Shown: piece by piece, positions 28,175 through 41,664 of the stretch
Layout of the letters: the number at the start of each line of letters is the position of its first letter
Position numbering within the stretch: position 1 is the stretch's first letter
Assembly (NCBI GenBank): GCA_035698525.1
Contig: DASSBR010000053.1
Span: 22,187 to 86,186 of the forward strand
Origin: Gammaproteobacteria bacterium
GTDB taxonomy: Bacteria; Pseudomonadota; Gammaproteobacteria; Natronospirales; DASSBR01
Reading direction: 5' to 3'
DNA length: 64,000 nucleotides
Position numbers and translations under genes: made by a program
Notes under the pieces: generated by a model
The model's database searches: none
What the model was told of the DNA's origin: nothing
The model's input: only the letters and a program-made list of their open reading frames with translations

Positions 28175-28206
28175 TCCTTTTTGCGGTTTTGCAGGGCTTG
28201 TCGGGG

Positions 28207-28222: not shown

Positions 28223-28311
28223 TTATTTATGTGCGGCGAATTTGCGGCCGCGAGGGAGCATTATTAAATAAGTATTTGAAATACAAGTAAAAAATAGTGT
28301 GGCTAAAGCGC

Positions 28312-28340
28312 TTGACAGCATCTCCCGTCAGGCCTATGCT
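28312..28340 (+). promoter_or_regulatory. candidate sigma-70 promoter for nrdJa
   Basis: TTGACA (28312-28317), a 17-nt spacer, then TATGCT (28335-28340). This predicts a 5' UTR of about 100 nt before ATG 28450. Confidence 0.5.
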
Positions 28341-28449
28341 TTGGGCTCAGCCTACAAGATGTTGTGTCTTTATATCCACAACTTCTCCACAGCTTGTACA
28401 CGATATTTACGACCGAAAGAAGTCAAAAATCCGGAGGGCGGGTCATAGT

Positions 28450-31400
28450 ATGAAGACAGCAATGAAGCGCGAACCCACAACAGTCATGGAAATCCCGGTG
28501 CAGGAAGCATCCGCAGACATCTGGGACAAGAAATACCGCCTGAAGACCAAGGATGGCACGATTCTGGACGAGACGGTTGACGATACGTACAAGCGCGTCG
28601 CCCGCGCGCTGGCCGAAGTCGAAGAACCGGCCAATCAAGAGGAGTGGTACGAGAAATTCCTGTGGGCGCTGCGCCATGGCGCCATTCCGGCCGGTCGCAT
28701 CACGTCCAACGCCGGCGCGTGGGAGCACAAGCCGGCGACCTCGACGATCAACTGCACCGTTTCCGGCACGATCCGCGACTCGATGAACGACATCCTCGGC
28801 AAGGTGCACGAGGCGGGGCTCACGCTCAAGGCCGGCTGCGGCATCGGCTACTGCTTCTCGACGCTGCGCCCGCGTGGCGCCTACGTCGCCGGCGCCGGCG
28901 CCTACACCTCCGGCCCGCTGTCGTTCATGGATATCTACGACAAGATGTGCTTCACCGTCTCGTCGGCCGGCGGCCGCCGCGGCGCGCAGATGGGCACCTT
29001 CGACGTCGGCCACCCGGACGTGCTCGACTTCATCCGCGCCAAGCGGGAGTCCGGTCGCCTGCGCCAGTTCAACCTGTCGCTGCTGGTCACCGACGAATTC
29101 ATTCAGGCGGTCAAGAACGACGCCACCTGGCCGCTGGCATTCCCGCTCAACCAGATAGAAGTGGACGCCGAGGAAATCGACATCAACGACCCGGCCAAGG
29201 TCGTCTGGCGCGAGTGGGAAACCACCGAAGGCTATGTCACCAACGAAGCGGGCCTGGTCGCCTGCAAGATATACAAGACCCTCCCGGCGCGCCGCGTCTG
29301 GGACATGATCATGACCTCGACTTATGACTTTGCCGAGCCCGGCTTCGTGCTGATCGACAAAGTCAACGAGATGAACAACAACTGGTTCTGCGAAACCATC
29401 CGTGCGACGAACCCGTGCGTGACGGCCGATACCCGGCTGCACACACAGTACGGGCTGGTCCCGATCGGCGAGCTGTATCAGTCGGGTGTGCCGCTGTCCG
29501 TGACGGTGGACCGTCGCGCGTTGGGTGATGATGATCGCGGCGTCGAAATTCGCGACGCCAAACCTGCTTTTATGACGGCACGCGAAGCCGACGTATACAA
29601 GGTCGTCACCGAAGCCGGTTATGAAATAAAGGCCACCGAATGGCACGATTTCTACACTCAGCGCGGGAAGATCAAGCTGTCAGAGTTGCAGGCCGGCGAC
29701 GAATTGCTGGTGCAGTCCGGCAAAGGGCAGTTCGGCAAGGAGGGCAGTAATCAGTTGGGCACGCTGCTCGGGCTCATTACGGGCGATGGTCACTTCACCA
29801 ACCGTGGCAAGGATCAGGAAGCGGTCATCGTTAACTTCTGGAACGAAGAACGTACGCTCGCAAACGGAATAGCAGGCTATATCAACAGCTTGATCGCCAG
29901 CGTGGCACAAAGCGCCAGAAGCTACGAGGTCGCACCCGTAGCAGTACCGGAGCGGAACCATCTCTTTATCCGCTCGGTGTTGTTGGCCCGCGTACTTGAG
30001 CATTACGGCTTCACCCGGCAGAGCAAGTTAAGGGTGCCGGAAGTGGTCTGGCGCGGCTCCGAAGCATGCGTAAAGGGCTACCTGCGCGGCCTGTTCCAGG
30101 CCGACGGTACGGTCAATGTCTCGTCCAACGGCCAGAGTTGCTCCGTTCGTTTGGCTTCAAGCTATCCGAGTCTGCTCAAGGACGTTCAGATGTTGCTCGC
30201 CAACTTCGGCGTGTACTGCCGCATCCACCAGCGGCGCCGCGCCGGCAAGCGCATACTTCCTGATGGTCGTGGTGGCCAGCGCGAATATGCCTGCCGGGCG
30301 GATCATGAACTGATCATTGATGGACAGTCGCGCGGCGTATTTATGCGCGAGATCGGCTTCCTGATGGATTATAAGAACGAGAAATACGCGCAATGGGTGG
30401 CCGACAAGGCGCTGCGCAAGACGCAACGGTTCGCGACGAAGATCAAGGAAATAGTGTTTGTTGGTCGCGAGGCGGTTTTCGACACCACGCAGCCCGATAA
30501 CAACACGGTTATCTTCAACGGCCTGGTGACGGGGCAATGCGGCGAACAGCCGCTCCCGCCGTACGGCTCCTGCCTGCTAGGCTCCGTTAACCTCACCAAG
30601 TTCGTGCTCGACCCGTTCACCGATCAGGCGCGTTTCGACTGGGAAGAATTCCGCGACGTCGTCAAGACGTTCACGCGGATGCTCGACAACGTCGTCGAGA
30701 TCAACGGCCTGCCGCTGGAGCAGCAGCGCAACGAAATCTTCAGCAAGCGCCGCCACGGCATGGGCTTCCTGGGGCTAGGCTCAACGCTGACGATGCTGCG
30801 TATGAAATACGGCGCGCCGGAGTCGGTCGACTTTACCGACCAGGTCTCGCGCGAACTGGCCGTCGCCGGCTGGGAAGAAGCGCTGGAACTGGCGAAGGAA
30901 AAAGGCCCCGCGCCGATCCTCGTCGAGAACTTCACCGTCACCGAGGAAATGCTGCGCAAGCGCCCGGAAATGGCGGCGGACGGCTACAAGGTCGGCGACA
31001 AGGTTCCGGGGCGCATCCTGCACTCGAAATACAGCCGCTACATGCAACAGGTCGCGACTGTCGCGCCCGAACTGGTGGCGGAACTGGCCGAAGTGGGCGC
31101 GCGCTTCACGCACCACAGCTCGATCGCCCCGACCGGCACGATCTCGCTGTCGCTCGCGAACAACGCCGCCAATGGCATCGAGCCGAGCTTCGCGCACCAC
31201 TACTTCCGCAACGTGATCCGCGAAGGCAAGAAGTCGAAGGAAAAGATCGACGTCTTCTCGTTCGAGCTGCTGGCCTACCGCGCGCTCATCAACCCGAACG
31301 CGCTGCCCGAGTCCGAGAACGAGCACGAAAAGCTGCCCGACTACTTCGTCACGGCGGAACACATCACGCCGAAGGAACACGTCGACATTCAGGCCGCGGC

Positions 31401-31719
31401 ACAGAAGTGGATCGACTCGTCGATCTCCAAGACCGCCAACGTCCCGACCGACTACCCGTACGAGGACTTCAAGGACATCTACCTGTATGCCTACGACAGC
31501 GGCCTGAAAGGCTGCACCACGTTCCGCTTCAACCCGGAAGCGTTCCAGGGCGTGCTCGTCAAGGGCTCCGACCTCCAGAACACCACATACAAGTTCACGC
31601 TGGAGGACGGCACCGTAGTTGAAGCCAAGGGTGACGAAGAAATCGAATACGACGGCGAAATGCACACCGCCGCCAACTTATTCGACGCTCTTAAAGAGGG
31701 CTACTACGGCAAATGGTGA
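28450..31719 (+). CDS. nrdJ: class II (adenosylcobalamin-dependent) ribonucleotide reductase, NrdJa part, interrupted by an in-frame intein
   Basis: ATG 28450 lies downstream of the promoter and of GGAGGG. RNR blocks include NCTVSG and the finger-loop motif ATNP/CGEQPLPPYGSC, which is split by 374 inserted codons. Without the insert the product is about 715 aa. Confidence 0.9.
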   Translation: MKTAMKREPTTVMEIPVQEASADIWDKKYRLKTKDGTILDETVDDTYKRVARALAEVEEPANQEEWYEKFLWALRHGAIPAGRITSNAGAWEHKPATSTINCTVSGTIRDSMNDILGKVHEAGLTLKAGCGIGYCFSTLRPRGAYVAGAGAYTSGPLSFMDIYDKMCFTVSSAGGRRGAQMGTFDVGHPDVLDFIRAKRESGRLRQFNLSLLVTDEFIQAVKNDATWPLAFPLNQIEVDAEEIDINDPAKVVWREWETTEGYVTNEAGLVACKIYKTLPARRVWDMIMTSTYDFAEPGFVLIDKVNEMNNNWFCETIRATNPCVTADTRLHTQYGLVPIGELYQSGVPLSVTVDRRALGDDDRGVEIRDAKPAFMTAREADVYKVVTEAGYEIKATEWHDFYTQRGKIKLSELQAGDELLVQSGKGQFGKEGSNQLGTLLGLITGDGHFTNRGKDQEAVIVNFWNEERTLANGIAGYINSLIASVAQSARSYEVAPVAVPERNHLFIRSVLLARVLEHYGFTRQSKLRVPEVVWRGSEACVKGYLRGLFQADGTVNVSSNGQSCSVRLASSYPSLLKDVQMLLANFGVYCRIHQRRRAGKRILPDGRGGQREYACRADHELIIDGQSRGVFMREIGFLMDYKNEKYAQWVADKALRKTQRFATKIKEIVFVGREAVFDTTQPDNNTVIFNGLVTGQCGEQPLPPYGSCLLGSVNLTKFVLDPFTDQARFDWEEFRDVVKTFTRMLDNVVEINGLPLEQQRNEIFSKRRHGMGFLGLGSTLTMLRMKYGAPESVDFTDQVSRELAVAGWEEALELAKEKGPAPILVENFTVTEEMLRKRPEMAADGYKVGDKVPGRILHSKYSRYMQQVATVAPELVAELAEVGARFTHHSSIAPTGTISLSLANNAANGIEPSFAHHYFRNVIREGKKSKEKIDVFSFELLAYRALINPNALPESENEHEKLPDYFVTAEHITPKEHVDIQAAAQKWIDSSISKTANVPTDYPYEDFKDIYLYAYDSGLKGCTTFRFNPEAFQGVLVKGSDLQNTTYKFTLEDGTVVEAKGDEEIEYDGEMHTAANLFDALKEGYYGKW
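29416..30537 (+). mobile_element. intein with LAGLIDADG homing-endonuclease domain inside nrdJa
   Basis: Block A CVTADTRLHT at the N-junction. Block B KATEWHDFYT. LAGLIDADG motifs LLGLITGDGHF (29764-29796) and YLRGLFQADGTV (30079-30114). Block F/G reads EAVFDTTQPDNNTVIFNGLVTGQ followed by the +1 Cys of CGEQPL. Confidence 0.85.
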
Positions 31720-31784: not shown

Positions 31785-32519
31785 ATGACCATAAAGATCG
31801 ACAAAAAAATCGTAAGCTACAACGTAGCCAAACCCGCCGAAGGCGAAGCCGAGAAATCAACAATAGAATCGGCAGTAAACAAAAAAGCCGCCGCCCAAGC
31901 GGCGGAGAAAAAGCCAAAGGCCGAAGTCATCCGCATGCACGAAAAGCTCGAGCGGCCGGAAAGGCTGCTCGGCTCAACGTACAAGGTCAAAACGCCGATC
32001 TCCGAACACGCGATGTACGTCACCATCAACGACATCCTGCTGAACGAAGGCACGGAATACGAAGTTCGCCGCCCGTTCGAGATCTTCATCAACTCGAAAA
32101 ACCTCGACCACTACCAGTGGATCGTCGCCCTGACGCGAATCATCTCCGCAGTTTTCCGCAAGGGCGGCGACGTCACCTTCCTGGTAGAAGAGCTGAAAGC
32201 GGTATTCGACCCGCGCGGCGGCTACTGGAAGCCGGGCGGCAAGTTCATGCCGTCACTGATCGCCGAACTCGGCGAAGTGATCGAAAAGCACCTCGTCACC
32301 ATCGGCATGATGCACAAGGAAGAACTCGACGAGCACCAGAAAAAGCTGATCGAAGAAAAGCGCGCCGAATTTGAAGCGCAGACAAAGCAGCAGGACGCGT
32401 TTGCGGAGAATGCGTTTCCGGCTGGGGCGCAGCTTTGCGCCAAATGCAACACGGCGGCTGTTGTGATGATGGATGGGTGTATGACTTGTCTTAGTTGCGG
32501 CGATAGCAAGTGCGGGTAG
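31785..32519 (+). CDS. nrdJ: class II ribonucleotide reductase C-terminal subunit (NrdJb, TSCPD-type domain)
   Basis: AAGGA RBS. The core is YVTINDILLNEG...RPFEIFINSKN...WIVALTRIISAVFRKGG. The C-terminal Cys tail is CAKCNTAAVVMMDGCMTCLSCGDSKCG, as at the end of unsplit NrdJ. Confidence 0.8.
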   Translation: MTIKIDKKIVSYNVAKPAEGEAEKSTIESAVNKKAAAQAAEKKPKAEVIRMHEKLERPERLLGSTYKVKTPISEHAMYVTINDILLNEGTEYEVRRPFEIFINSKNLDHYQWIVALTRIISAVFRKGGDVTFLVEELKAVFDPRGGYWKPGGKFMPSLIAELGEVIEKHLVTIGMMHKEELDEHQKKLIEEKRAEFEAQTKQQDAFAENAFPAGAQLCAKCNTAAVVMMDGCMTCLSCGDSKCG

Positions 32520-32592
32520 GCAAATTCGGCGCCATCTCCGCTAGAGTTATATTTATAATTGACCGCTGAACAGCATCAGGGGAAAGCACGTA

Positions 32593-33369
32593 ATGCAAGC
32601 ACTGGGTGACCGATGGAGGCAATTTGGTGCGATTGTTTTGGATCCGTGGACGGCATGCCTTATGTTGGCTGTAGCTGCGCTCTTTTACATGTCACTGCAC
32701 CAAGCAAACGCAGTTGGTTCAACGCTTCTGTTTGTCCTAATTACGCTAACATCTGCGGTACTCGGTGGGCGCATTACAAAGCAATGGGTAGAAGCAACAG
32801 AGGGTGGAGTGGTAGTAGCTCGGGGGCGATCTGCCGTACGCAGCCTGAAACTTCTGCTCAGAACAATATCTTCGTTGGAGTCACGCATACGTGCGTTTAG
32901 GGATGCGGAAGGTGAAATAGAGCAACATCCGCTAATGGTTCGACGGAATTACGAGGAAGCCATTCAAGCATGCAACCTACTCCAAGAGGAAACCGTGAGT
33001 TCGATAGAGAACTGGACGGACATAGTTCCGGAGGCAGACATCAAGACTCAGATTGGCTTAATCAGTGAACTCAAGAAGAGCATCGCGGACAAGGAGATCG
33101 AGCTTAGCAATTTAGATGATCAACTAAGGGAGACGAAAGGTCAGTCTGAAGCCGAGCGGACTCAGCTTAAACAGCAGATAAGGGATAAGGCGGCGCAGAT
33201 TGATAAACTGCAACATGAAGTAATGGAACGGAAAGTTAATGTAGGGGGCTTCGGTCTCGCAGATGTTGGAAGGCTTGAAGGTCCTACGGGCGATGTGCCG
33301 TTGGCTGCGTCGGATGTGAAGTCGCGAATCGCAAAGCTTATAGAGGCGATGAACTCAAAGACGGAGTAG
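32593..33369 (+). CDS. hypothetical membrane-anchored coiled-coil protein (island gene 1)
   Basis: 258 aa. Two N-terminal hydrophobic helices (ACLMLAVAALFYMSL and STLLFVLITLTSAVLGG). A long heptad-like, charged segment follows (KKSIADKEIELSNLDDQLRETKGQSEAERTQLKQQIRDKAAQIDKLQHEV). Low GC. GGGGAAAG precedes the ATG. Confidence 0.55.
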   Translation: MQALGDRWRQFGAIVLDPWTACLMLAVAALFYMSLHQANAVGSTLLFVLITLTSAVLGGRITKQWVEATEGGVVVARGRSAVRSLKLLLRTISSLESRIRAFRDAEGEIEQHPLMVRRNYEEAIQACNLLQEETVSSIENWTDIVPEADIKTQIGLISELKKSIADKEIELSNLDDQLRETKGQSEAERTQLKQQIRDKAAQIDKLQHEVMERKVNVGGFGLADVGRLEGPTGDVPLAASDVKSRIAKLIEAMNSKTE

Positions 33370-33407
33370 AAGGTGTTCGAGCTTGGGGCAGATCTTCTGA
33401 ACCGGGA

Positions 33408-33647
33408 GTGTTAAGAATCAGAGAGCAGGTAAATGAAAATTGTAATGCGGCGCGACGTATGCAAATCGAATACGTACACCTTGATGCGGATGAAGCTTGG
33501 AACGCGGATGCTCAAAGGTGGGAGCTTGCCACTGTGTGCGACAATGCCACCTGCGAAATGTGCGGCGGAGAGACGTCAATCGAGGAGTTCAAGATTGGCG
33601 GTGACAGATCAAAAGCGATGCCAAGACAACGACTGGAGAACCGATGA
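33408..33647 (+). CDS. small hypothetical acidic protein with C-x4-C-x2-C motif (island gene 2; start uncertain)
   Basis: The stop overlaps the ATG of the next gene (ATGA at 33644-33647). Starts are possible at GTG 33408 or ATG 33459. A competing frame exists at 33433-33666. Confidence 0.35.
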   Translation: MLRIREQVNENCNAARRMQIEYVHLDADEAWNADAQRWELATVCDNATCEMCGGETSIEEFKIGGDRSKAMPRQRLENR

Positions 33648-34297
33648 AAAGGCGATTGACGCTTGAAGTCTTGCAAACAGAAGCTGCCAAATTTGCCGAG
33701 AGAGAGACTAAGTATGACGAACCGAAACTATATGGCGTCACTGACGGCAAGGCCGTTGGAACCTATCTTGAACACAAGTTCACAGTCTATCTGCTGGAAC
33801 GCTACAAGTTCGACAAGGGCAACTCGGCCGTGGGAATCGACCTACCGGGGCTAGACGTAGACATCAAGGTGACGAGCATCAAACAGCCACAGTCGTCGTG
33901 TCCTTTTAAATCAGCCAAGCAAAAAATTTATGGTCTGGAATACAGCTTGTTAATATTCGTTTATCAGAAATACGACGACCATAAGCGTCAGACCGGGCGT
34001 CTCAACATGAAGCACGCCATCTTCGTGGCGAAGGAGCGGACCGCGGACTATCAGACCACGAGAGGCATTAGGGAGATACTCGACCGAGATGGAAATGAGG
34101 ATGACATCGCAGCCTTCATTATGGAGCGTAATCTCCCGGTAGACGAAGTGGGCGCGCGTTCCTTGGCAGAAGCGATCCTGAAAAAGCCGCCGGAACTAGG
34201 GTACGTGACGATGTCTAATGCGCTGCAATGGAGGTTACAGTATAAACGGGTAATTGAGCGGGCCGGGGAAGTTGACGGGCTAGTGAGGATCAGATAG
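33644..34297 (+). CDS. putative PD-(D/E)XK type II restriction endonuclease (island gene 3)
   Basis: 217 aa. The motif GIDLPGLDVDIKVTS (D66...D72-I-K74; 33839-33868) is preceded by GKAVGTYLEHKF. A DNA methyltransferase gene follows immediately. Confidence 0.55.
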   Translation: MKRRLTLEVLQTEAAKFAERETKYDEPKLYGVTDGKAVGTYLEHKFTVYLLERYKFDKGNSAVGIDLPGLDVDIKVTSIKQPQSSCPFKSAKQKIYGLEYSLLIFVYQKYDDHKRQTGRLNMKHAIFVAKERTADYQTTRGIREILDRDGNEDDIAAFIMERNLPVDEVGARSLAEAILKKPPELGYVTMSNALQWRLQYKRVIERAGEVDGLVRIR

Positions 34298-34299
34298 AC

Positions 34300-35865
34300 G
34301 TGGCGACCAAACACCCTGAAAAGTGGGAGTATGGCGACTTTCAGACACCCGATGCCTTAGCAAGAGCAGTTGTCGGGCGGCTTGCTAAGAATCACGGTAT
34401 AGCCCCGAGGACAATCATAGAGCCAACTTGCGGTGAAGGCGCATTCGTGCGCGCCGCGTTGGAGGAATTCCCCGATGCTGATGTCGTGGCGTTTGATATT
34501 AATGGCCAATACGTCAAAGCAGCCCGAGAACAATGCCATTCCACCGGAGCAGGCGGCTCCATTTACATAAAGCAGGCGGACTTCTTTTCGTTGGACTGGG
34601 ACGAAATTTTGAGCAATATCGCGCCTCCCATACTAGTGCTCGGAAACCCGCCTTGGGTGACTAGTAGTGAGTTAAGTGCACTTAATAGCAAAAACCTGCC
34701 GGCTAAATCCAATTTCCAAGGTCGAAGAGGCATTGAGGCAATAACAGGGGCCGCGAACTTTGACATATCGGAATGGATGTTGCTGCGGCATGTGCGGTGG
34801 CTAAGTCGCGTCGAGGGAACTATCGCTCTGCTATGCAAATATTCAGTTGCCCGCAAGGTAATGCGGCAAATCCAGCAGAATCAGGAGCAGCGGCTATTCG
34901 GCCACATCTACTTCATAGACGCGAAGCGTCACTTCGGAGCTTCGGTAGCGGCTTGTCTGTTCGTGCTGACAACCGACCGCGGTAATGCGGATTGCGAGGT
35001 CTACGACGATATGGAAGCCGCTAGCCCGGCGCACGTCATAGGAGGACGTGACGGGCTTTTAGTCAAGGATGTCGACAGTTATGCCAAATGGCGCCATCTA
35101 CGCGGCCAAGACAGCCGACATATATGGCGTTCGGGAATGAAGCATGACTGCTCAAAGGTCATGGAGCTAGAGCCCCTCGGAAACGGCATGTATCGAAATG
35201 GCTTACATGAAGATGTAAGGATAGAGCTGCACTACCTGTTTCCGCTGCTAAAGAGTTCTGACATCGGAAATTCAAGAATAAAAACTTACCGGAAGGTAGT
35301 GTTGGTGCCTCAGCGTAAGGCCGGCGAAGATACTTCGTCCATACAGTCCGCGGCTCCAAAAACATGGGATTATCTTCAGGCACATGACGAATTATTGGCC
35401 GGCCGGAAAAGCAGCATATACAAGAATAAACCAGCCTATTCTGTGTTCGGTATCGGCGACTATAGCTTTAAGCCATGGAAGGTCGCAATATCCGGGTTCT
35501 ACAAGCACCTAAAATTCCACCTCGTTGGGCCGATGGAAAACAAGCCCGTTATCTTCGACGATACAATAAGTTTTCTCGGATTCGACACAAAGGCCGAAGC
35601 GCAATTTATCCACGATCTACTGGCTTCCGAACCGGCCCATCAATTTTTAGCCTCGATGATTTTCTGGGACGAAAAGAGACCCATTACGACCACCATCCTC
35701 CGGCGCTTGTGCTTAAAGTCGCTTTCTATTGAGGTGGGCCGCTCGGCCGAATATCTTCGCTGGTGCAAGGGATCTAGCATTGGCGAGAATGGTCAGCAAC
35801 TTCTGGCTATAGGGGAACAACGAGCGCCTTTCTCGACTCACGGAAGTCTGACCGATCACGCCTAA
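34300..35865 (+). CDS. N6-adenine DNA methyltransferase, gamma-class (island gene 4)
   Basis: GTG start 2 nt after the previous stop. Motif I IIEPTCGEGAF, motif IV LGNPPWV (NPPW at 34645-34656), and a C-terminal region of about 300 aa (likely the target-recognition domain). Confidence 0.8.
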   Translation: MATKHPEKWEYGDFQTPDALARAVVGRLAKNHGIAPRTIIEPTCGEGAFVRAALEEFPDADVVAFDINGQYVKAAREQCHSTGAGGSIYIKQADFFSLDWDEILSNIAPPILVLGNPPWVTSSELSALNSKNLPAKSNFQGRRGIEAITGAANFDISEWMLLRHVRWLSRVEGTIALLCKYSVARKVMRQIQQNQEQRLFGHIYFIDAKRHFGASVAACLFVLTTDRGNADCEVYDDMEAASPAHVIGGRDGLLVKDVDSYAKWRHLRGQDSRHIWRSGMKHDCSKVMELEPLGNGMYRNGLHEDVRIELHYLFPLLKSSDIGNSRIKTYRKVVLVPQRKAGEDTSSIQSAAPKTWDYLQAHDELLAGRKSSIYKNKPAYSVFGIGDYSFKPWKVAISGFYKHLKFHLVGPMENKPVIFDDTISFLGFDTKAEAQFIHDLLASEPAHQFLASMIFWDEKRPITTTILRRLCLKSLSIEVGRSAEYLRWCKGSSIGENGQQLLAIGEQRAPFSTHGSLTDHA

Positions 35866-35949
35866 CGTACTGCTTTTCGCAATCGGGTTCCGCTTCTTCC
35901 TACTGCTATCAGCAGCTTTTGAGGAGGATTGCCAATGCTCCCGTGACCC

Positions 35950-36699
35950 CTACGGCGATGTCCTCTCCACTCGAAGGAATGTAGCAAGATCATCTTCGTC
36001 TCCCGCCCCCTCATGCAGCATAACCTGCCAGCCGTAGGTTGATAATACGTCGTGTACAAATAGTTGCGCACGCATCCGTTCGGCAGAATAATCACGTCGT
36101 AACGCTTCGCGCGTTCCGTGGCTTATCTGAGATCGCCCTCTCTCATATATCTCCTTCACGACTTGCTTCACCGATTTGGCAGGTACCTTATCAAAGTAAG
36201 GGTCATCAGCTTCACGATTTAGCACAGAAGTTGCCATATCAATGATTCCACTGGCTTTGCCGCCATTCGCGAGTGTATCTAAGCAAATGCCGGAATAGAC
36301 AAGAGATTCAAAGTCGAATGTCGTGGTCATAGCCCGGTGAAACCAATGAACGGCCGACAACCATCTGTCGCCAAGTTTCGGGCACCGCCAACGCCCGTTG
36401 GGAGCTTCACTATCACCTACGTAAGATTCCAGCATGCGCCCTAGCGCCACACAATATGCTGCAAAGTTGCCCGCCCCATCGTGAGCAATAGCATCACCTT
36501 CCTTCAGACGTGTTGCGTCGAAAGACCATCCGGGAAACGTTATAGCGTCCGTTCGGAAGGCCATGCCTTTCTTCATCATCGGACGCCAGGGTTCATCCAA
36601 GAGATGGGCATGGGCAATGGCCGGAAGGCCAAGGGGGAGTAAGACTGAAACCAATGCAAGCCGCGCAGCAGCATGCGCTAACTGATCCGCGCGCACCAT
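35950..36699 (-). CDS. hypothetical protein with C-terminal Rx4H (HEPN-like) motif
   Basis: 249-aa ORF in low-GC DNA. ERGRSQISHG (R189-x4-H194; 36118-36135) lies between predicted helices. The start is uncertain because the RBS is poor. Confidence 0.45.
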   Translation of the reverse strand: MVRADQLAHAAARLALVSVLLPLGLPAIAHAHLLDEPWRPMMKKGMAFRTDAITFPGWSFDATRLKEGDAIAHDGAGNFAAYCVALGRMLESYVGDSEAPNGRWRCPKLGDRWLSAVHWFHRAMTTTFDFESLVYSGICLDTLANGGKASGIIDMATSVLNREADDPYFDKVPAKSVKQVVKEIYERGRSQISHGTREALRRDYSAERMRAQLFVHDVLSTYGWQVMLHEGAGDEDDLATFLRVERTSP

Positions 36700-36802
36700 T
36701 CCTAAGCTCGGTGTACGGACGCAAATAAAGGTCGTAGCTCGATCGGCCCATTCATTTACATTCTTGACGGCTTGCTCACACGCGTCCCGCGCAAACTGCG
36801 AG

Positions 36803-37072
36803 TCAGTGCTGCCGAATCCAACGCATCAGCGCCTCGTAGCCGGCCAGGGTAATAGGTGTGCTGCCGCGTCCATCTGCTGCGGGAAGCATCGGCGGAAACG
36901 GCATGTCCGGTTTTTTGTCACGCCACTGTTTAAAAACGTCGCGGCCAAGCGATTTCGCTTCAACTATCCCCTCTATCGCGGCTGCTAGATCCTCGTTTAA
37001 CTCCAGTCCGTGTTCGTCAGCAAGATCATTCTCCGCCAAACCTTCGCCTCCGGTAGCACCAACGGGTAGCAA
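36803..37072 (-). CDS. small hypothetical acidic protein upstream of the HEPN-like gene
   Basis: 89-codon ORF with a TTG start, on the same strand and 103 nt upstream of 36699. No motif recognised. It could be a gene fragment. Confidence 0.3.
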   Translation of the reverse strand: MLPVGATGGEGLAENDLADEHGLELNEDLAAAIEGIVEAKSLGRDVFKQWRDKKPDMPFPPMLPAADGRGSTPITLAGYEALMRWIRQH

Positions 37073-37222
37073 TTAAATGTATGATACTAACGACCCGTAT
37101 AAGTATACAGGTTACCATTCGCACAAAGGATGCGGGCTTGGGGGAATGACGGCTGAAGTCGCGTTTTGGCGGGTACAGTAGTAAATATCTACTTTGTGTG
37201 TGACTAAGAAGTGTGGATCAGT

Positions 37223-37428
37223 GGGATCAGACTGAGGCACCCCCGTTTTCACGGACAGATAATTAAGATACAGCAACTCGTTCTTCATAATGCAGAGGGT
37301 TGATATAGCCCAACGTCTGATGCGACCTCTGTCGATTGTAAAACATTCAATGTAATCAAAAATTTCCGCCCGTGGCATAGCGTCCAGTGGAAGCTAACCG
37401 ATTAAACGGACACTGAAGTTTGGGGTCA
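37223..37428 (-). mobile_element. IS3-family insertion sequence relic (transposase C-terminal remnant with frameshift plus terminal TG...CA ends)
   Basis: The minus strand encodes PRAEIFDYIECF, and after a 1-nt frame slip FYNRQRSHQTLGYINPLHYEE-stop, which is the conserved end of IS3 OrfB. The stop lies about 40 nt (37263-37265) before a terminal ...GGGGGTGCCTCA. The opposite end reads TGACCCCAAACTTCAGTGTCCG. Confidence 0.6.
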
Positions 37429-37448
37429 GGTCTCGAATCGTAGCATTC
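37422..37448 (+). repeat. 27-bp direct repeat, copy 1
   Basis: GGGGTCAGGTCTCGAATCGTAGCATTC, identical to 37580-37606. It overlaps the proposed IS end (GGGGTCA). Confidence 0.9.
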
Positions 37449-37579
37449 AGCGGGCGTAGCTGGGGCTCGGGGCCGTCGGCGGGCGCCAAGAATTGCTTGC
37501 GCATGGCATCCAGCCGAGTAGCTTGATCCGGGGATCAGTTTTCGCTCTGTAGGGAGCAAAAACCCGGGGTCAAAAATCC

Positions 37580-37606
37580 GGGGTCAGGTCTCGAATCGTA
37601 GCATTC
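37580..37606 (+). repeat. 27-bp direct repeat, copy 2
   Basis: Perfect copy of 37422-37448. An extra GGGGTCA lies at 37566-37572. Confidence 0.9.
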
Positions 37607-37645
37607 GCCAAGCATACTCGGGCATCTCTTTGCCTCAGTGGCCTT

Positions 37646-39646
37646 TTAAAGGGCCGGAACGCCAATATCCGTGAGTAGAGCGTGGGCCGGATCGTAGTAT
37701 TCTGCCTTTCGAGTGGGGTCGTCGACGCTACCTTCTGGGACAACGATTACCATACCTTGCCTGGCGCGGGTGAGGAGTACGCGGTAGGCATTCAGTAGGT
37801 AGTGCTGTCGAATACCTTTCCGTACGCGCTGCCACCGCTTGCCTTTGAAGCTGAAATAGTCCCAGTTCGTCTGGTTCATGCGCAGGTCACCGTCCCATAC
37901 GACGCAAGTCCAATCGAGCTCCAGTCCCTGTACTTGAAACTCGGTGGCGACGTCCTCCAGATAGTAGGAAGACCGGACGTCATTCTTGCCCTCAAGGAAC
38001 CACCGTACCGGATCGACTTTAACTCGCACATCGATGGCGTGCGGCTTCAACCGCTGTGCCTGGGACGACACCACAATGCCGTAACGTTCACTGCCACGGG
38101 CTTGTTCACGCAGCCAAACTTTCGCCTTATTTAAACTGCGAGTCACACGAATCGGAAAGTTTGGCAAAACGTGCGATAGCGTGTCCCGAGCCTGTTCCAA
38201 CTCAAGGTTGAGCAGTTGGTTGACGAAGTCAGATACGTTTTCGGATCGAAAAGATCGGATCGAAGTGGCGAGATGAAGAGCCTCGTCCCAATGGCCCCGC
38301 GAGTTGCTCGCCAGAGCGCGTAGTTCGTCTTCAGCGCGATATTCAATTTCCAATAGGCGGGGGGACAGATAGACAGACCACGAGTCGAAACGCTCTCGTA
38401 TCGCCCGCAGCCATTCGCCGATACCGGCCTCGCCAGTGTTGATTTCCTGGCCGCTACCCACCAGACAGATGACGGCGGCCCAGTCGTCGTGCCGGTCGAG
38501 ACACGAGATCAGAAATCCGGGTTCGGATTGATCGAAGTCGGGAATGCCTTTCTTTTGCCGCATGAAGTTGGTCGTTTGTTCAAGGCTCCACGCTCGCTGA
38601 GCCTCGTCAAACAGTGCGATGTGTTCAATCGGGGCGGCAGTGTTCGCGAGGCAGTCGTCGCGGAAGTGGTGAACGTTTTGGATGAACTGCTTCACTGAGC
38701 TGCGTGCTTCACCAATTCGAAGTTTATTGCCGCGCACTTTGGCCCGGCTAACCTGATCGCGAGCCAGCGCTTCGTGCAATACCTTAACGAGTGGCCCGTT
38801 GCCGGAAAGATAGACGCTGTAGAGATCGTCTTCCTTTCTTGTATGCCGGTTGGCGATGTCGAGCCCGACAAGCGTTTTTCCCGCACCGGGTACGCCGGTG
38901 ACGAAGAAGATTGCCTTTTCACCGTGTTGCTGCGTCTGCGCGATCAGCCTGGCGAGCTGTTCAGAGGTGATAACGAGGTTTTCCGCTCCGGCGTAACTTC
39001 GGGAGATGTCTTCTACATTGTGTCCGGCATAGAGCGCGCGGGCCGCTTCCACAATGGTAGGAGTTGGATGATAACGGCCTTGCTGCCAGGCCTGAGGGTC
39101 GATTTGTGCTCCGGCGAAGTGTTGAGCTCCGAGCTGTAGTGCACGCGGCAGTCCCCGCTCTCCGCAACATAGCGGGACGGTGAGGCTGTCCTGGCGTGGC
39201 GTATCTTCAATCGATGTCGGAATATCTGGCGCATCTGTTGCTACCAGCACCGGTACAATCGGAATGTGGTGACTCGGTTCGTGAAAGTTCTTGAGATCGA
39301 GAGCGTAATCCCAGACTTGGTCAATGGCGTCGCGTGAAAAGGTGTCGCTGCCAACCTTGAATTCCAACACGAAGACAATTTGGTCAAGAAGAAGAACGGT
39401 GTCGATTCGTCTGCCAAGCCGCGGTATATCGTATTCGAGCAAGACGCCACCATCGATCGACTGAAAGTCGGCCAATAGCGTCTTAAGGATGTCTATCTGC
39501 CGCTTCCATGCGGCCTTCTGTGAGGGGTCGTCGGAAAAACTCGACCAGCTCGTCAACGCGCCAATAATGACATTAGTATTGTCATTGAGGAATTCTGCAA
39601 TGGGCGCCCCGTACCCCCATCGTTTCCGCATTTGTGCTTGATCCAT
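37646..39646 (-). CDS. PD-(D/E)XK nuclease - DUF2075/Schlafen-group-3-like SF1 helicase fusion protein
   Basis: 666 aa. N-terminal GRRIDTVLLLDQIVFVLEFKVG (D82...E95-x-K97; 39356-39403). Walker A FFVTGVPGAGKT (38873-38896). Walker B ALFDEAQRAW. C-terminal AYRVLLTRARQGMVIVVP. Confidence 0.8.
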   Translation of the reverse strand: MDQAQMRKRWGYGAPIAEFLNDNTNVIIGALTSWSSFSDDPSQKAAWKRQIDILKTLLADFQSIDGGVLLEYDIPRLGRRIDTVLLLDQIVFVLEFKVGSDTFSRDAIDQVWDYALDLKNFHEPSHHIPIVPVLVATDAPDIPTSIEDTPRQDSLTVPLCCGERGLPRALQLGAQHFAGAQIDPQAWQQGRYHPTPTIVEAARALYAGHNVEDISRSYAGAENLVITSEQLARLIAQTQQHGEKAIFFVTGVPGAGKTLVGLDIANRHTRKEDDLYSVYLSGNGPLVKVLHEALARDQVSRAKVRGNKLRIGEARSSVKQFIQNVHHFRDDCLANTAAPIEHIALFDEAQRAWSLEQTTNFMRQKKGIPDFDQSEPGFLISCLDRHDDWAAVICLVGSGQEINTGEAGIGEWLRAIRERFDSWSVYLSPRLLEIEYRAEDELRALASNSRGHWDEALHLATSIRSFRSENVSDFVNQLLNLELEQARDTLSHVLPNFPIRVTRSLNKAKVWLREQARGSERYGIVVSSQAQRLKPHAIDVRVKVDPVRWFLEGKNDVRSSYYLEDVATEFQVQGLELDWTCVVWDGDLRMNQTNWDYFSFKGKRWQRVRKGIRQHYLLNAYRVLLTRARQGMVIVVPEGSVDDPTRKAEYYDPAHALLTDIGVPAL

Positions 39647-39871
39647 GCCGGATCATCCCCCGCCCGTGACCGCACCAGGTTAGCGGATGCCACGTGCGGT
39701 GTCACGCTCTGGCTGCTGTCCCTGATCGTGCCCTGGCCGAGGGCGAGAATGAAATCGATTCGGTGGTCTGACAGGTTGCAAAATCATGAGCGCTTTTGCT
39801 TACAGGCGCTACTTGTATCTCGACCGAACGCTATAATGACGGCTCCAGCCTTTGCATAGCCGTCAGCGCCT

Positions 39872-40972
39872 ATGGAATTTCACGGACGCCTGCGCCACGT
39901 CGTCGCGATATTGCTTCTGCCGATCGTGTTCGTTGGGTGCGCGACCCAACCCGCCAGGCGTTCGCCGTCGGCGGCGGTGCAGGCCAAGATCGTCCAGCTG
40001 ATGCAGTCCGGCGTCAGCGACGCAAGCGGGTGGGCGACCGACATTGATACGGCACTCGCGGTCCAGGACATCCCGGCAACGACGCAAAACATTTGTGCCA
40101 TATTGGCGGTGACGGAGCAGGAATCGGGATTCAAGGTGAACCCCGTCGTACCGGACCTGCCGGAGATTGCGCGCCATACCCTGGAGAGGCGGGCCGCAGC
40201 CCGCCATATACCGGGATTCGTGGTCGATGCAGCGTTGGCCTTGAAGTCGCCGGACGGCCGGAGCTACGGCGAACGGCTGAAGAGCGTGCATACCGAGAAA
40301 GAGCTGAGTGCGCTGTTCGAAGACTTTATCGGCCGGGTTCCGCTCGGCAAGCGGCTGTTCAGTTCATTCAACCCAATCCACACGGGCGGGCCGATGCAGG
40401 TGAGCATTGCCTTTGCGGAAGCGCACGATCAGGACTACCTGTATCCGGTGGATGGCTCGATCCGCAACGAAGTCTTCAGCCGGCGCGGCGGCATGTATTT
40501 CGGCATCGCGCACCTCTTGGGCTACCCCACGCACTATCACCGTATCATCTACCGCTTCGCCGATTACAACGCGGGCTGGTACGCCAGCCGCAACGCCGCG
40601 CTACAGCACGCGATCAGCGTTGCCTCCGGCATTCCACTGGCGCTCGACGGAGATCTGGTCCGCTACGGTTCCGACGAGCCGGGCGCGACGGAACGGGCGG
40701 TACGATCGTTGCGTGACAAGCTGGACATGACGAACGAGGAGATTCACGACACGCTGGAACAGGGAGAAACCTACGAGTTCCAGGCGAGTCACTTGTACGA
40801 AGGCATCTTTGCGCTGGCGGACCGGATCGCGGGTAAGCGCCTGCCGCGTGCAGTGCTGCCGGGCATCAAGCTCGAAAGCCCGAAGATTACGCGCGACCTC
40901 ACTACGGCTTGGTTCGCCAAGAGGGTCAGCGCACGATTCTGGCATTGCATGCCGTCGAGCTCGGGCGACTGA
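39872..40972 (+). CDS. lipoprotein, DUF1615-like
   Basis: Lipobox LLLPIVFVGC. ICAILAVTEQESGFKVNP and GGPMQVS blocks. The family name is recalled from memory and not verified. Confidence 0.5.
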   Translation: MEFHGRLRHVVAILLLPIVFVGCATQPARRSPSAAVQAKIVQLMQSGVSDASGWATDIDTALAVQDIPATTQNICAILAVTEQESGFKVNPVVPDLPEIARHTLERRAAARHIPGFVVDAALALKSPDGRSYGERLKSVHTEKELSALFEDFIGRVPLGKRLFSSFNPIHTGGPMQVSIAFAEAHDQDYLYPVDGSIRNEVFSRRGGMYFGIAHLLGYPTHYHRIIYRFADYNAGWYASRNAALQHAISVASGIPLALDGDLVRYGSDEPGATERAVRSLRDKLDMTNEEIHDTLEQGETYEFQASHLYEGIFALADRIAGKRLPRAVLPGIKLESPKITRDLTTAWFAKRVSARFWHCMPSSSGD

Positions 40973-41019
40973 GACGCCGTTTCCGGCGCGCGCGCCCGGC
41001 GACCCGACAATTCCTGCAA

Positions 41020-41604
41020 TCAAAATTGGAATTCCAAACCAACCGAAAATGTCGTGATCGATGTCGAATCGCCGGCTATTTTGGCCGTGTGATAATCACC
41101 ATTCAGGCCGACCGCGACATCCGGGGTGATCCAATACCCGGCGCCGATGCCCAAATACGCGCCGGTCCAGTTCCCATCGTAGTCGGTAATTGGATTGAGG
41201 GGCCCGTTTCTGTTGCTACCGGTGGCTGACAATCTCATTAGACCGACACGAGGTTCCAGATAGAGTCGACCAATCTCGAAATTGATGTTCGCGCCTACTT
41301 TGACCGCACTCGCATCAATATACTCTCCATAGTAGGCGTTCGTGATCGAGGGTTCCCCGGAACTGGATGCAGCAAAATCCACATAGCCCAATGCAACACC
41401 TGCCGCAACGCCATCGCTAATTTTCCACCGATAACCGGCCAGGATGCTGGGCGTAAGCGTGTCATGCGTCTCATCGTAAATGTAGGTATGGCCGATCTTC
41501 ACCTCGGCAAAAAAATTGCCGTCATCGCCGGGCGCCGCGACGGCCGTCGGAACGGCAAGTGCGGTACCCACACTCAATACCAGCGCAAGTTGCACTATTT
41601 TCAT
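41020..41604 (-). CDS. outer-membrane beta-barrel protein
   Basis: Signal peptide MKIVQLALVLSVGTALAVPTAVAA. Alternating hydrophobic beta-strand pattern. C-terminal ...FSVGLEFQF. Confidence 0.7.
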   Translation of the reverse strand: MKIVQLALVLSVGTALAVPTAVAAPGDDGNFFAEVKIGHTYIYDETHDTLTPSILAGYRWKISDGVAAGVALGYVDFAASSSGEPSITNAYYGEYIDASAVKVGANINFEIGRLYLEPRVGLMRLSATGSNRNGPLNPITDYDGNWTGAYLGIGAGYWITPDVAVGLNGDYHTAKIAGDSTSITTFSVGLEFQF

Positions 41605-41664
41605 ATTGGCAACCTTGAGGGTGTGAAAAGAACTGTGAATTGGCATGCGCCCCGAACCTTTGGA

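What the first reader, a model, noticed from the sequence alone, without database searches (positions are those of the whole stretch)
32520..39871. Low-GC accessory island of about 7.3 kb between nrdJb and a lipoprotein gene, packed with nuclease, methylase and helicase genes
Core DNA on both sides is very GC-rich. A spot count of the 60-nt line at 22621 gives 45/60 G+C. Lines inside this segment are much lower: the line at 33661 gives 27/60. The segment holds a membrane coiled-coil protein, a small Cys-motif protein, a PD-(D/E)XK nuclease, an N6A methyltransferase, an Rx4H protein with a small partner, an IS3 relic and a nuclease-helicase fusion. That content is typical of a phage-defence island. 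I found no integrase, tRNA gene or flanking direct repeats, so the way it was acquired is unclear. Several of the modules do not match a named system that I recognise.
Basis: partly seen in the sequence, partly recalled or inferred. Interest (0 to 1): 0.75.

Follow-up and report, generated by a model that had tools for sequence, protein, structure and literature searches.

The report
Partly decayed phage-defence island beside nrdJ
A 7.2-kb stretch of foreign-looking DNA downstream of the ribonucleotide reductase genes is an ordinary bacterial phage-defence island: an intact NspV-type restriction-modification pair and an intact nuclease-helicase, plus one broken gene, one unannotated membrane protein and a non-coding scar.

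Summary
The compositional observation holds. Window 32520-39725 has 52.8% G+C against 61.8% for the rest. No equal-sized window elsewhere falls below 58.1%. GC3 is 0.50-0.61 against 0.70-0.86 in core genes, and tetranucleotide distance peaks here. The background is about 62% G+C, not the ~75% the spot count implied.

Three genes are intact members of catalogued defence families:
- A type II restriction enzyme of the NspV family (33644-34297).
- Its gamma-class N6-adenine methyltransferase (34300-35865).
- A PD-(D/E)XK + DUF2075 nuclease-helicase that matches PADLOC candidate PDC-S41 over its full length (37646-39646).

The "Rx4H protein with a small partner" is one broken gene. The two ORFs are the N- and C-terminal pieces of an unannotated ~460-aa family; about 115 codons are deleted and the frame shifts.

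The "IS3 relic" has no significant support. The small Cys protein has no homologue. The membrane coiled-coil protein belongs to an unannotated family of at least 123 proteins that often lies beside other defence or restriction genes.

I found no tRNA, integrase or flanking repeat, and no syntenic relative, so how the island arrived is unresolved. Verdict: a real but ordinary, partly decayed defence island. The modest novelty lies in the two unannotated families.

The parts
32520..32592 (.). Left junction: an AT-rich 73-nt spacer between the nrdJb stop codon and the first island gene.
   Evidence: Read directly from the sequence. GC3 falls from 0.73 in nrdJb to 0.50 in the next gene. Logan contigs from 7 sequencing runs all begin at 32456 or 32459, inside the last 64 nt of nrdJb.
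32593..33369 (+). memCC: a 258-aa inner-membrane-anchored all-helical protein (two N-terminal TM helices, then long cytoplasmic helical hairpins). It belongs to an unannotated family.
   Evidence: At least 123 homologues of 260-330 aa occur across several phyla, all unnamed. The conserved core is ...RNYEE..C..LQEE..SSIENWTDIVPEADIKTQIG. The AF2 model has pLDDT 85 and is all-helical. It has no significant PDB match. Only sub-threshold coiled-coil hits appear in Pfam and PADLOC; EAD9 scores 16.8 bits against a cutoff of 25.
33408..33647 (+). cys79: a small Cys-containing ORF (C-x4-C-x2-CGG) that overlaps the REase start by 4 nt. Its start codon is uncertain and its status as a gene is unproven.
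   Evidence: No homologue other than itself. Only sub-threshold zinc-finger hints, E = 0.02-0.03. An alternative 77-aa frame (33433-33666) has the better ribosome-binding site (sequence).
33644..34297 (+). Type II restriction endonuclease of the NspV family, apparently intact.
   Evidence: NCBIfam NF052465 equivalog: E = 1.8e-103, 344 bits against a cutoff of 290, covering profile positions 1-208 of 209. PADLOC PDLC03454: E = 2.8e-100. Precomputed Pfam PF27258 NspV. It is 47-61% identical to REases on Nostoc, Aeromonas, Klebsiella and lactic-acid-bacterium plasmids.
34300..35865 (+). Cognate gamma-class N6-adenine DNA methyltransferase, apparently intact.
   Evidence: PADLOC MTase_II PDLC03310: E = 1.3e-165, covering profile positions 4-470 of 475. 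The motif order is GDFQTP (residue 12), EPTCGEGAF (41), NPPW (116). The nearest solved relative is M.BseCI, a weak match. The same R-then-M order is seen on the Nostoc, Aeromonas and Lactococcus plasmids, and the two genes overlap in the first two.
35950..36801 (-). C-terminal fragment of a broken ~460-aa HEPN-like gene. The ORF from the first ATG is 35950-36699; homology continues upstream to 36801, with no start codon in that stretch.
   Evidence: A full phmmer search gives 280 cluster representatives, nearly all 430-500 aa, which match through their C-terminal halves. P0122 residues 187-462 align to 36801-35974 in frame -3. Invariant positions are W119, R189, S190, H194 and G195, giving the motif GRSxxxHG, an Rx4H. 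The AF2 model has pLDDT 90.5.
36803..37072 (-). N-terminal fragment of the same broken gene, in a different frame.
   Evidence: P0122 residues 5-72 align to 37015-36812 in frame -2 (48% identity, E = 8e-16). Residues 73-186 have no counterpart, so about 115 codons are deleted at about 36801-36812. The junction is identical in independent Logan contigs.
37073..37645 (.). Non-coding scar zone between the two modules. It holds a perfect 27-nt direct repeat (37422-37448 and 37580-37606) and a doubtful transposase-like fragment (about 37325-37372, minus strand).
   Evidence: The repeat was found and is unique to these two sites in the window at up to 3 mismatches. rve_2 scores only E = 0.13, 12.8 bits. 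There is no tblastn or blastn support in plasmids and no Rfam hit.
37646..39646 (-). A 666-aa single-gene nuclease-helicase: an N-terminal PD-(D/E)XK-like domain plus a DUF2075 / Schlafen-group-3 SF1 helicase. It matches PADLOC candidate system PDC-S41 and appears intact.
   Evidence: PADLOC PDLC05014: E = 2.4e-277, covering profile positions 3-652 of 657. Pfam PF09848: E = 1.3e-81 over residues 244-637. Motifs are RID81...VLE95-F-K97, Walker A GVPGAGKT (residue 251) and DEAQ (residue 347).
39647..39725 (.). Right junction. Core-like sequence, shared with the closest available genome, resumes at 39726.
   Evidence: blastn of the window against L001 gives 93.7% identity over 39726-40980 only. 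G+C rises from 0.559 to 0.617.

Best explanation
This is a composite, partly decayed phage-defence island that sits downstream of nrdJb. It was probably assembled from at least two separately acquired pieces.

Piece A (32520 to about 37072, 51% G+C) carries a co-directional memCC-cys79-R-M cluster. R and M form an NspV-family type II restriction-modification pair. The gamma-class methyltransferase marks adenine in the recognition site, probably TTCGAA, on host DNA. The endonuclease cuts unmodified incoming DNA. Convergent to this cluster lies a ~460-aa HEPN-like gene that an internal ~0.35-kb deletion and a frameshift have inactivated.

Piece B (37646-39725, 56% G+C) is a single-gene PD-(D/E)XK + DUF2075 nuclease-helicase (PDC-S41). 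By analogy with Nhi and Nhi-like proteins, it would recognise and degrade phage DNA or replication intermediates.

A 570-nt non-coding scar separates the two pieces.

Shown here: the atypical composition, the family memberships, the intactness of R, M and S41, and the broken state of the HEPN-like gene.
Inferred: the recognition sequence, the anti-phage activity of S41, two-step acquisition, and any role for memCC. For memCC my best guess is a stand-alone, defence-associated, membrane-anchored protein rather than a part of the R-M system.
For: Composition.

R-M pair:
- NCBIfam equivalog above its curated cutoff, and PADLOC REase_II and MTase_II, all full length.
- Pfam NspV.
- The same R-then-M gene pair is carried on plasmids of cyanobacteria, gammaproteobacteria and lactic-acid bacteria, so the module is mobile.
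- NspV recognises TTCGAA (PMC2779907).

S41:
- Full-length PDC-S41 match and DUF2075.
- Nuclease and helicase motifs.
- The architecture equals that of the experimentally active Nhi and Nhi-like proteins.

Broken gene. The deletion junction is reproduced at 100% identity in independent metagenome runs.

Two pieces: the G+C step from 0.514 to 0.559, and the scar zone between them.

Not at this locus in the closest relative: L001 (DUF1615 95% aa identity) carries core-like genes, apparently glpK, with GC3 0.76-0.85 directly upstream of DUF1615. None of the island genes lies within 10 kb.
Against: - No empty-site comparison was possible. None of 80 DUF1615 loci or 80 nrdJb loci has nrdJ and DUF1615 together, and the closest nrdJb relatives are only 70-78% identical. 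Acquisition is therefore inferred from composition alone.
- There is no integrase, tRNA, flanking repeat or convincing IS.
- PDC-S41 is a candidate system. I found no paper that names it, so its defence activity is unproven.
- TTCGAA is depleted (7 observed against 20.4 expected), but it ranks only 12th of 64 hexamer palindromes, so the depletion is not diagnostic.
- The N-terminal nuclease fold of S41 rests on a motif. I had no structure model for it.
Confidence: 0.8

Rival explanations
1. memCC, cys79, R and M form one four-gene system. The membrane protein, and perhaps the small Cys protein acting as a non-HTH controller, would be functional parts of a new R-M variant, for example a membrane-tethered or abortive back-up arm.
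For: - The four ORFs are co-directional and tightly spaced. The cys79 stop overlaps the R start by 4 nt, and R and M are 2 nt apart.
- The block 32456-36905 is recovered as one identical contig in several runs.
- memCC homologues lie next to other, unrelated methyltransferase or R-M genes in 2 further contexts out of about 10 examined. These are a HinP1I-type R-M in L179 and an NPPY methyltransferase in L165.
- Some family members carry a fused C-terminal CxxC...CPxC zinc ribbon.
- A Lactococcus homologue of the R-M pair has an HTH regulator where cys79 sits.
Against: - The same R-M pair occurs without memCC or cys79 on the Nostoc, Aeromonas and Lactococcus plasmids.
- memCC homologues also lie beside unrelated partners: a P-loop ATPase with toxin-antitoxin pairs, AlbA_2, a transposase, and genes on viral contigs.
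- cys79 has no homologue at all.
- The Cys pattern of cys79 differs from that of the fused zinc ribbons.
Confidence: 0.15
2. The segment is the eroded remnant of a larger mobile element, such as an integrative element, a transposon or a prophage. Its integrase or transposase and its ends would have been lost.
For: - Gene decay and a scar zone with a perfect 27-nt direct repeat.
- A faint rve_2-like stretch.
- Three memCC relatives sit on IMG/VR viral contigs.
- A second atypical block lies on the other side of DUF1615.
Against: There is no integrase, recombinase, transposase, tRNA, att-like repeat or terminal inverted repeat. No inverted copy of the 27-mer exists at up to 3 mismatches. There are no phage structural or replication genes. 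The IS signal is not significant.
Confidence: 0.15
3. The island arrived by homologous recombination through flanking core genes from a related donor that already carried it downstream of nrdJb. That would explain the absence of any integration machinery.
For: - Logan contigs from seven runs all begin at 32456 or 32459, 64 nt inside nrdJb. All contigs that reach the right side end at 36905. The assembly graph therefore branches at fixed points.
- The last 21 nrdJb codons have GC3 0.57 against 0.74 for the rest of the gene.
- No site-specific signatures are present.
Against: - The GC3 shift inside nrdJb is not significant (Fisher p = 0.12).
- The contig breaks could equally reflect SNP-level strain variation in core genes.
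- No donor or recipient genomes are available. This rival concerns only the route of acquisition and is compatible with the main explanation.
Confidence: 0.25
4. The region is native, long-resident DNA. Its low G+C would reflect the function or expression of its genes rather than horizontal transfer.
For: Gene decay suggests the island is not brand new. No mobility genes are present.
Against: - GC3 of 0.50-0.61 against 0.70-0.86 is a synonymous-site signal, not an amino-acid effect.
- The tetranucleotide signature is the window's strongest outlier.
- The R-M module is plasmid-borne across phyla.
- The closest relative lacks all of these genes beside DUF1615.
Confidence: 0.05

Closest known systems
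NspV-family type II restriction-modification systems (Pfam PF27258 / NCBIfam NF052465 endonuclease with a gamma-class N6A methyltransferase; NspV site TTCGAA)
   Same: Both genes match full-length profiles, and the endonuclease scores above the curated cutoff. The R-then-M arrangement is the same as in the plasmid-borne homologues, and the genes are similarly close-packed. The methyltransferase has the gamma motif order and NPPW.
   Different: The endonuclease is only 47-61% identical to the plasmid homologues, so the specificity is not established. Two extra upstream ORFs (memCC and cys79) are absent from the homologous systems I inspected. The methyltransferase has a ~50-aa C-terminal extension beyond the profile.
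Nhi (Staphylococcus epidermidis SERP2475) and Nhi-like single-protein defence; PADLOC candidate PDC-S41
   Same: It is a single polypeptide with an N-terminal PD-(D/E)XK-type nuclease motif and a DUF2075 SF1 helicase (Walker A, DEAQ). It lies in a defence island and matches PDC-S41 over its full length.
   Different: The PADLOC Nhi model matches only about 40 residues around the P-loop (E = 8.7e-6), so the protein is not a sequence-level member of Nhi. PDC-S41 is a predicted candidate; I found no published test of it.
HEPN-domain toxins and defence effectors (Rx4-6H RNases such as Csm6/Csx1 and Abi/HEPN-MNT toxins)
   Same: An Rx4H motif (R189...H194) is invariant within an all-helical C-terminal domain. 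A homologue (P0122) lies in a defence island beside an Mrr/AspBHI-type R-M and an MZB helicase.
   Different: No Pfam, NCBIfam or PADLOC model matches. Foldseek finds no significant PDB match; Csm6 and AF_0298 HEPN appear only at E > 1. The family has a distinctive ~220-aa N-terminal half. The copy in this window is broken.
Defence islands in general (clusters of R-M, Abi and other systems in variable, compositionally atypical regions)
   Same: It holds a known system and a catalogued candidate system plus unannotated neighbours within 7 kb. Its composition is atypical. Pseudogenisation is present. It is absent from the corresponding position in the nearest relative.
   Different: No associated mobile-element genes are recognisable. 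No strain-level comparison was available to show presence/absence polymorphism.

Membership tests
Type II R-M, NspV family | The endonuclease matches the family model above the curated threshold and over its full length. | tested here: met
   NF052465 at 344.2 bits against a cutoff of 290, profile positions 1-208 of 209. PDLC03454 at E = 2.8e-100. PF27258 NspV, precomputed.
Type II R-M, NspV family | An adjacent cognate DNA methyltransferase with an AdoMet-binding motif and a catalytic (D/N)PP(Y/F/W) motif. | tested here: met
   PDLC03310 at E = 1.3e-165. Motifs EPTCGEGAF and NPPW are in gamma order. The gene starts 2 nt after the endonuclease gene ends.
Type II R-M, NspV family | Recognition and cleavage of TTCGAA, with protective methylation of that site. 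| not testable with these tools
   TTCGAA is depleted: 7 observed against 20.4 +/- 4.4 expected. It ranks only 12th of 64 hexamer palindromes, so the result is not diagnostic.
PADLOC PDC-S41 | A full-length match to the PDC-S41 profile. | tested here: met
   PDLC05014 at E = 2.4e-277. Protein residues 9-665 align to profile positions 3-652 of 657.
PADLOC PDC-S41 | Demonstrated anti-phage activity. | not testable with these tools
   No paper in the library mentions PDC-S41.
Nhi / Nhi-like | Domain architecture: an N-terminal PD-(D/E)XK nuclease plus a DUF2075 helicase. | tested here: met
   PF09848 at E = 1.3e-81 over residues 244-637. The D81...E95-x-K97 motif, Walker A and DEAQ are present. 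The architecture is as described. The nuclease fold itself was not modelled.
Nhi / Nhi-like | Sequence membership in the Nhi profile. | tested here: not met
   PDLC02372 Nhi matches residues 235-275 only, at E = 8.7e-6.
HEPN superfamily (the broken ~460-aa gene) | A conserved Rx4-6H motif. | tested here: met
   R189 and H194 are invariant across 60 family members.
HEPN superfamily (the broken ~460-aa gene) | A HEPN four-helix fold that is recognisably similar to solved HEPN domains. | tested here: inconclusive
   The AF2 model has pLDDT 90.5. The best Foldseek PDB hit is at E = 0.76. Csm6 (rank 4) and the AF_0298 HEPN domain (rank 29) appear only at E > 1.
IS3 family insertion sequence | A DDE (rve) transposase domain and terminal inverted repeats. 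| tested here: not met
   rve_2 scores only E = 0.13 over 16 residues. There are no tblastn or blastn hits in 72,556 plasmids. No inverted repeats bound the stretch.
EAD9 adaptor domain (Pfam PF19962) | A score at or above the Pfam gathering threshold. | tested here: not met
   The window protein scores 16.8 bits against a cutoff of 25. Two homologues score 24.8 and 25.5 bits. The match lies in a coiled-coil segment, so it may be compositional.
Integrase-mediated genomic island | An integrase, a tRNA/tmRNA target and flanking direct repeats. | tested here: not met
   There is no tRNA in the window, no flanking repeat pair and no integrase hit.
Defence island | Two or more defence systems clustered in a compositionally atypical region that varies between relatives. 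| tested here: met
   An R-M system and PDC-S41 lie within 6 kb. Composition is atypical. The genes are absent beside DUF1615 in the closest genome, L001. No same-species comparison was available.

The most novel reading that the evidence does not exclude
The 258-aa membrane-anchored helical protein (memCC) may represent a new, widespread defence-associated family. It could act as a membrane-tethered sensor or abortive-infection effector that recurrently partners with restriction-modification and other immune genes. Separately, the ~460-aa Rx4H family, broken in this window, may be a new HEPN-type defence nuclease with a fold variant not yet in the PDB.
Probability: 0.25. Interest if true: 0.55.

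Novelty: new member of a known kind. Interest (0 to 1): 0.3.

Why it matters
As an island it adds little. It is a standard mix of a plasmid-type restriction-modification pair and a catalogued candidate nuclease-helicase in an uncultured gammaproteobacterium.

It has three practical uses:
- It corrects the annotation: one pseudogene rather than a two-gene Rx4H pair, and no demonstrable IS.
- It gives an intact PDC-S41 representative that could be tested for anti-phage activity.
- It flags two unannotated families for follow-up as candidate defence genes. memCC has at least 123 members. The ~460-aa Rx4H family has about 280 cluster representatives and a confident model with no PDB match. Both recur in defence neighbourhoods.

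Tried and rejected
I scanned genome contigs with DUF1615 and metagenome contigs with nrdJb. No locus holds both genes or any island gene, and the closest relative shares only the DUF1615 gene. The empty-site test could not be done.
- **Exact-protein look-ups.** nrdJb, S41 and DUF1615 found nothing.
- **IS3 relic.** Pfam at E <= 10, tblastn and blastn against plasmids gave nothing significant. I rejected it as a finding.
- **Tn3-like reading of the GGGGTCA... 27-mer.** No inverted copy exists at up to 3 mismatches. Rejected.
- **Non-coding RNA in the scar zone.** Rfam found nothing.
- **Promoter and terminator scan.** Counts were no higher than in shuffles.
- **TTCGAA avoidance as proof of specificity.** The depletion is not specific among palindromes.
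- **Fold searches.** The HEPN-like fragment and memCC gave no significant PDB match.
- **PDB sequence searches.** REase and S41 gave nothing useful.
- **Codon-usage shift in the nrdJb 3' end as a recombination junction.** Not significant, p = 0.12.
- **cys79 homologues.** None found.

Full report
**Observation.** A sliding G+C profile drops from about 0.62 to 0.49-0.56 between about 32.0 and 39.5 kb. Over 32520-39725 the G+C is 0.528, against 0.618 for the rest of the window. Among 424 equally long windows elsewhere the minimum is 0.581. The signal lies at synonymous sites. GC3 is 0.50 (memCC), 0.61 (REase), 0.56 (MTase), 0.50 (orf249) and 0.61 (S41). Core genes run 0.70-0.86, including nrdJa at 0.80, nrdJb at 0.73 and DUF1615 at 0.79. 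Tetranucleotide distance to the rest of the window peaks at 0.415 here and stays at or below 0.23 elsewhere. The island is also not uniform: 32520-36800 is 0.514 and 37646-39725 is 0.559.

**Boundaries and surroundings.**
- On the left, the island begins after the nrdJb stop at 32519. nrdJb is identified by its TSCPD domain and its match to the C-terminal part of the B12-dependent RNR model.
- On the right, nucleotide homology to the closest available genome covers window 39726-40980 only, at 93.7% identity. That genome is L001, a soil gammaproteobacterial MAG whose DUF1615 protein is 95% identical. I therefore place the right edge at about 39725.
- In L001 the DNA upstream of DUF1615 is core-like. 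G+C is 0.62-0.67 and GC3 is 0.76-0.85. The neighbouring gene starts MSNHQIDFILAIDQGTTGTT, which from memory I read as a glycerol-kinase signature.
- None of 80 DUF1615 loci from reference genomes, and none of 80 nrdJb loci from metagenomes, has both genes or any island gene. Upstream synteny (degP-like protease, nrdJa, nrdJb) is conserved in 27 loci, but nothing downstream of nrdJb is conserved.
- The window has no tRNA or tmRNA, the island has no flanking repeat pair, and no Rfam family is present.

**Restriction-modification pair.**
- ORF 33644-34297 matches the NCBIfam equivalog NF052465, a type II R-M system restriction endonuclease. The score is 344 bits against a cutoff of 290, over the full length. 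It also matches PADLOC REase_II PDLC03454 at E = 2.8e-100. The collection's precomputed Pfam label is PF27258, NspV. NspV recognises TTCGAA (PMC2779907).
- ORF 34300-35865 matches PADLOC MTase_II PDLC03310 at E = 1.3e-165. Its motifs run GDFQTP, EPTCGEGAF, NPPW. By the established classification of amino-methyltransferases (my own knowledge) this is the gamma arrangement of an N6-adenine enzyme. Its nearest solved relative is M.BseCI, a weak match.
- The same endonuclease-then-methyltransferase pair sits on plasmids of Nostoc, Aeromonas, Klebsiella, Lactococcus and lactobacilli, at 47-61% identity. It is a mobile module.
- TTCGAA occurs 7 times in the window, against 20.4 +/- 4.4 in shuffles. 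It ranks only 12th of 64 hexamer palindromes for depletion. This is compatible with the predicted specificity but proves nothing.

**Nuclease-helicase.** ORF 37646-39646 (minus strand, 666 aa) matches PADLOC PDC-S41 end to end (E = 2.4e-277) and Pfam DUF2075 / Schlafen group 3 helicase (E = 1.3e-81). The N-terminal part carries a PD-(D/E)XK-type signature, RID81...VLE95-F-K97. The helicase carries GVPGAGKT and DEAQ. This is the domain organisation described for Nhi of Staphylococcus epidermidis and for the 'Nhi-like' protein of Millman et al.. The PADLOC Nhi profile matches only the P-loop. The protein therefore works like Nhi by architecture but is not a sequence member of that family. No paper in the library mentions PDC-S41.

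**The 'Rx4H protein with a small partner' is one broken gene.**
- A word-indexed search found no relatives of orf249. A full phmmer scan of 1.84 billion representatives found 280. Almost all are 430-500 aa long, and they align to orf249 through their C-terminal halves.
- tblastn of the best full-length relative, P0122 (467 aa), against the window gives two pieces. Residues 5-72 match 37015-36812 in frame -2; this is the 'small partner', orf89. Residues 187-462 match 36801-35974 in frame -3.
- About 115 codons are missing at a junction only about 10 nt wide, and the frame changes. Homology in frame -3 continues about 100 nt upstream of the first possible start codon of orf249.
- Four Logan contigs span this junction, three at 100% identity and one with a single mismatch, so it is not an assembly artefact.
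- The family has no Pfam, NCBIfam or PADLOC model. W119, R189, S190, H194 and G195 are invariant, giving GRSxxxHG.
- An AF2 model of the fragment is confident (pLDDT 90.5). It has no significant PDB match; Csm6 and a HEPN protein appear only at E > 1. I call it 'HEPN-like' on the motif alone.
- P0122 itself lies in a defence neighbourhood, with an Mrr/AspBHI endonuclease, a C5 methyltransferase and an MZB helicase.

**Scar zone.** The stretch 37073-37645 has no convincing ORF. The supposed IS3 transposase tail gives only rve_2 at E = 0.13 over 16 residues. It has no tblastn or blastn support in 72,556 plasmids. A perfect 27-nt direct repeat, GGGGTCAGGTCTCGAATCGTAGCATTC, lies at 37422 and 37580. 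It occurs nowhere else in the window, and no inverted copy exists. Its origin is unexplained.

**memCC and cys79.**
- memCC (32593-33369) has at least 123 homologues of 260-330 aa in Proteobacteria, Planctomycetes, Chloroflexi and others, all unnamed. The alignment shows two N-terminal hydrophobic helices, a conserved ARGxSAVRSLKLLL helix, a highly conserved RNYEE...SSIENWTDIVPEADIKTQIG core, a coiled coil and a variable tail. In some members the tail ends in a CxxC...CPxC zinc ribbon.
- The AF2 model (pLDDT 85) is all-helical and has only generic coiled-coil/BAR matches. By the positive-inside rule (inference) the helical part faces the cytoplasm.
- The EAD9 hits are at or below threshold and lie in the coiled coil. 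I treat them as a lead only.
- The contexts of homologues are varied but defence-flavoured:

| Locus | Neighbours of the memCC homologue |
|---|---|
| L179 | HinP1I-type R-M |
| L165 | NPPY methyltransferase |
| L168 | Sll1717-type P-loop ATPase (weak resemblance to an anti-phage protein) between HipBA and VapBC |
| L169 | AlbA_2 protein |
| L176 | Transposase |
| L181-L183 | Three IMG/VR viral contigs |

- The plasmid copies of the NspV-type R-M lack memCC. I therefore favour an independent, defence-associated gene over an R-M subunit.
- cys79 (33408-33647) has no homologue at all. Its GTG start overlaps its own Shine-Dalgarno-like sequence, and an alternative frame has a better ribosome-binding site. 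Its reality is open.

**Population data.** Logan contigs from seven runs are 100% identical to the window. All begin at 32456 or 32459. Five contigs (four of them) end at exactly 36905; the rest stop earlier, inside the block. The graph therefore branches at fixed points, inside the nrdJb 3' end and inside the N-terminal fragment of the broken gene. This may mark recombination junctions or simply strain SNPs. The GC3 drop in the last 21 nrdJb codons (0.57 against 0.74) is not significant (p = 0.12).

**Conclusion.** This is a compositionally foreign phage-defence island with no visible integration machinery. It is an ordinary example of its kind: a catalogued R-M pair and a catalogued candidate nuclease-helicase, both intact, plus a pseudogene and a scar that point to decay. 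The remaining novelty lies in two unannotated protein families that recur in defence neighbourhoods. One of them is broken in this window.

Noticed in passing
window 29416-30537 (within nrdJa, 28297-31719 +): nrdJa carries a ~374-aa intein inserted in the conserved ...TNP|CGEQPL... active-site motif. It has two LAGLIDADG-type motifs (LITGDGHF, LFQADGTV). Its G+C is 0.584 against 0.62 for the exteins. The T. maritima NrdJ structure aligns in two stretches on either side of it.
   Followed up: partly
window 41020-43269: A second, weaker compositionally atypical block lies just beyond DUF1615, with GC3 0.58-0.63. It encodes an outer-membrane beta-barrel protein (41020-41646 -) and a BlaR1-type M56 peptidase with a TonB_C domain (41665-43269 -). 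These are not defence genes. DUF1615 is thus a core-like gene between two atypical stretches.
   Followed up: partly
window 39726-40980 vs L001 9854-11113: The DUF1615 gene and its promoter region are 93.7% identical to a soil MAG. Nothing within 10 kb on either side of the gene in L001 has a counterpart anywhere in the 64-kb window. In L002 (84% aa identity), homologues of window 51239-53114 lie upstream of DUF1615. Gene order around this gene is unusually fluid in the lineage.
   Followed up: partly
P0122-P0270 (relatives of window 35950-37072): An unannotated ~460-aa protein family has about 280 cluster representatives. It carries an invariant GRSxxxHG (Rx4H) motif, and a confident AF2 model has no significant PDB match. 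One intact member is followed by an 864-aa unknown gene inside a defence island (L175).
   Followed up: partly
L165, L168, L169, L176, L179, L181-L183 (relatives of window 32593-33369): The memCC family recurs beside unrelated methyltransferase or R-M genes, toxin-antitoxin pairs, an Sll1717-type P-loop ATPase and an AlbA_2 protein, and on three viral contigs. Some members have a fused C-terminal zinc ribbon.
   Followed up: partly
window 37422-37448 and 37580-37606: A perfect 27-nt direct repeat, GGGGTCAGGTCTCGAATCGTAGCATTC, occurs 158 nt apart. The second copy is preceded by tandem CCGGGGTCA units. It occurs nowhere else in the window and has no inverted copy. Its origin is unknown.
   Followed up: partly
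window 32456 and 36905: Logan contigs identical to the window all start at 32456 or 32459. Those that reach the right side all stop at 36905. The starts come from seven independent runs, so the assembly graph branches at fixed points. The cause was not determined.
   Followed up: partly
whole window: Several hexamer palindromes are strongly depleted. CCTAGG, TCTAGA and TAGCTA have 0 occurrences. GCTAGC has 1 against 12 expected, ATGCAT 2 against 18, and CAGCTG 5 against 20 under a maximal-order model. This suggests CTAG avoidance and perhaps other restriction systems in the lineage.
   Followed up: no
window 27661-28290: The low-GC stretch (0.55-0.57) upstream of nrdJa holds a 209-aa ORF with no Pfam or PADLOC hit and a GC3 of only 0.56. 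It is probably the non-coding leader of nrdJ. No cobalamin riboswitch or other Rfam family was detected.
   Followed up: no
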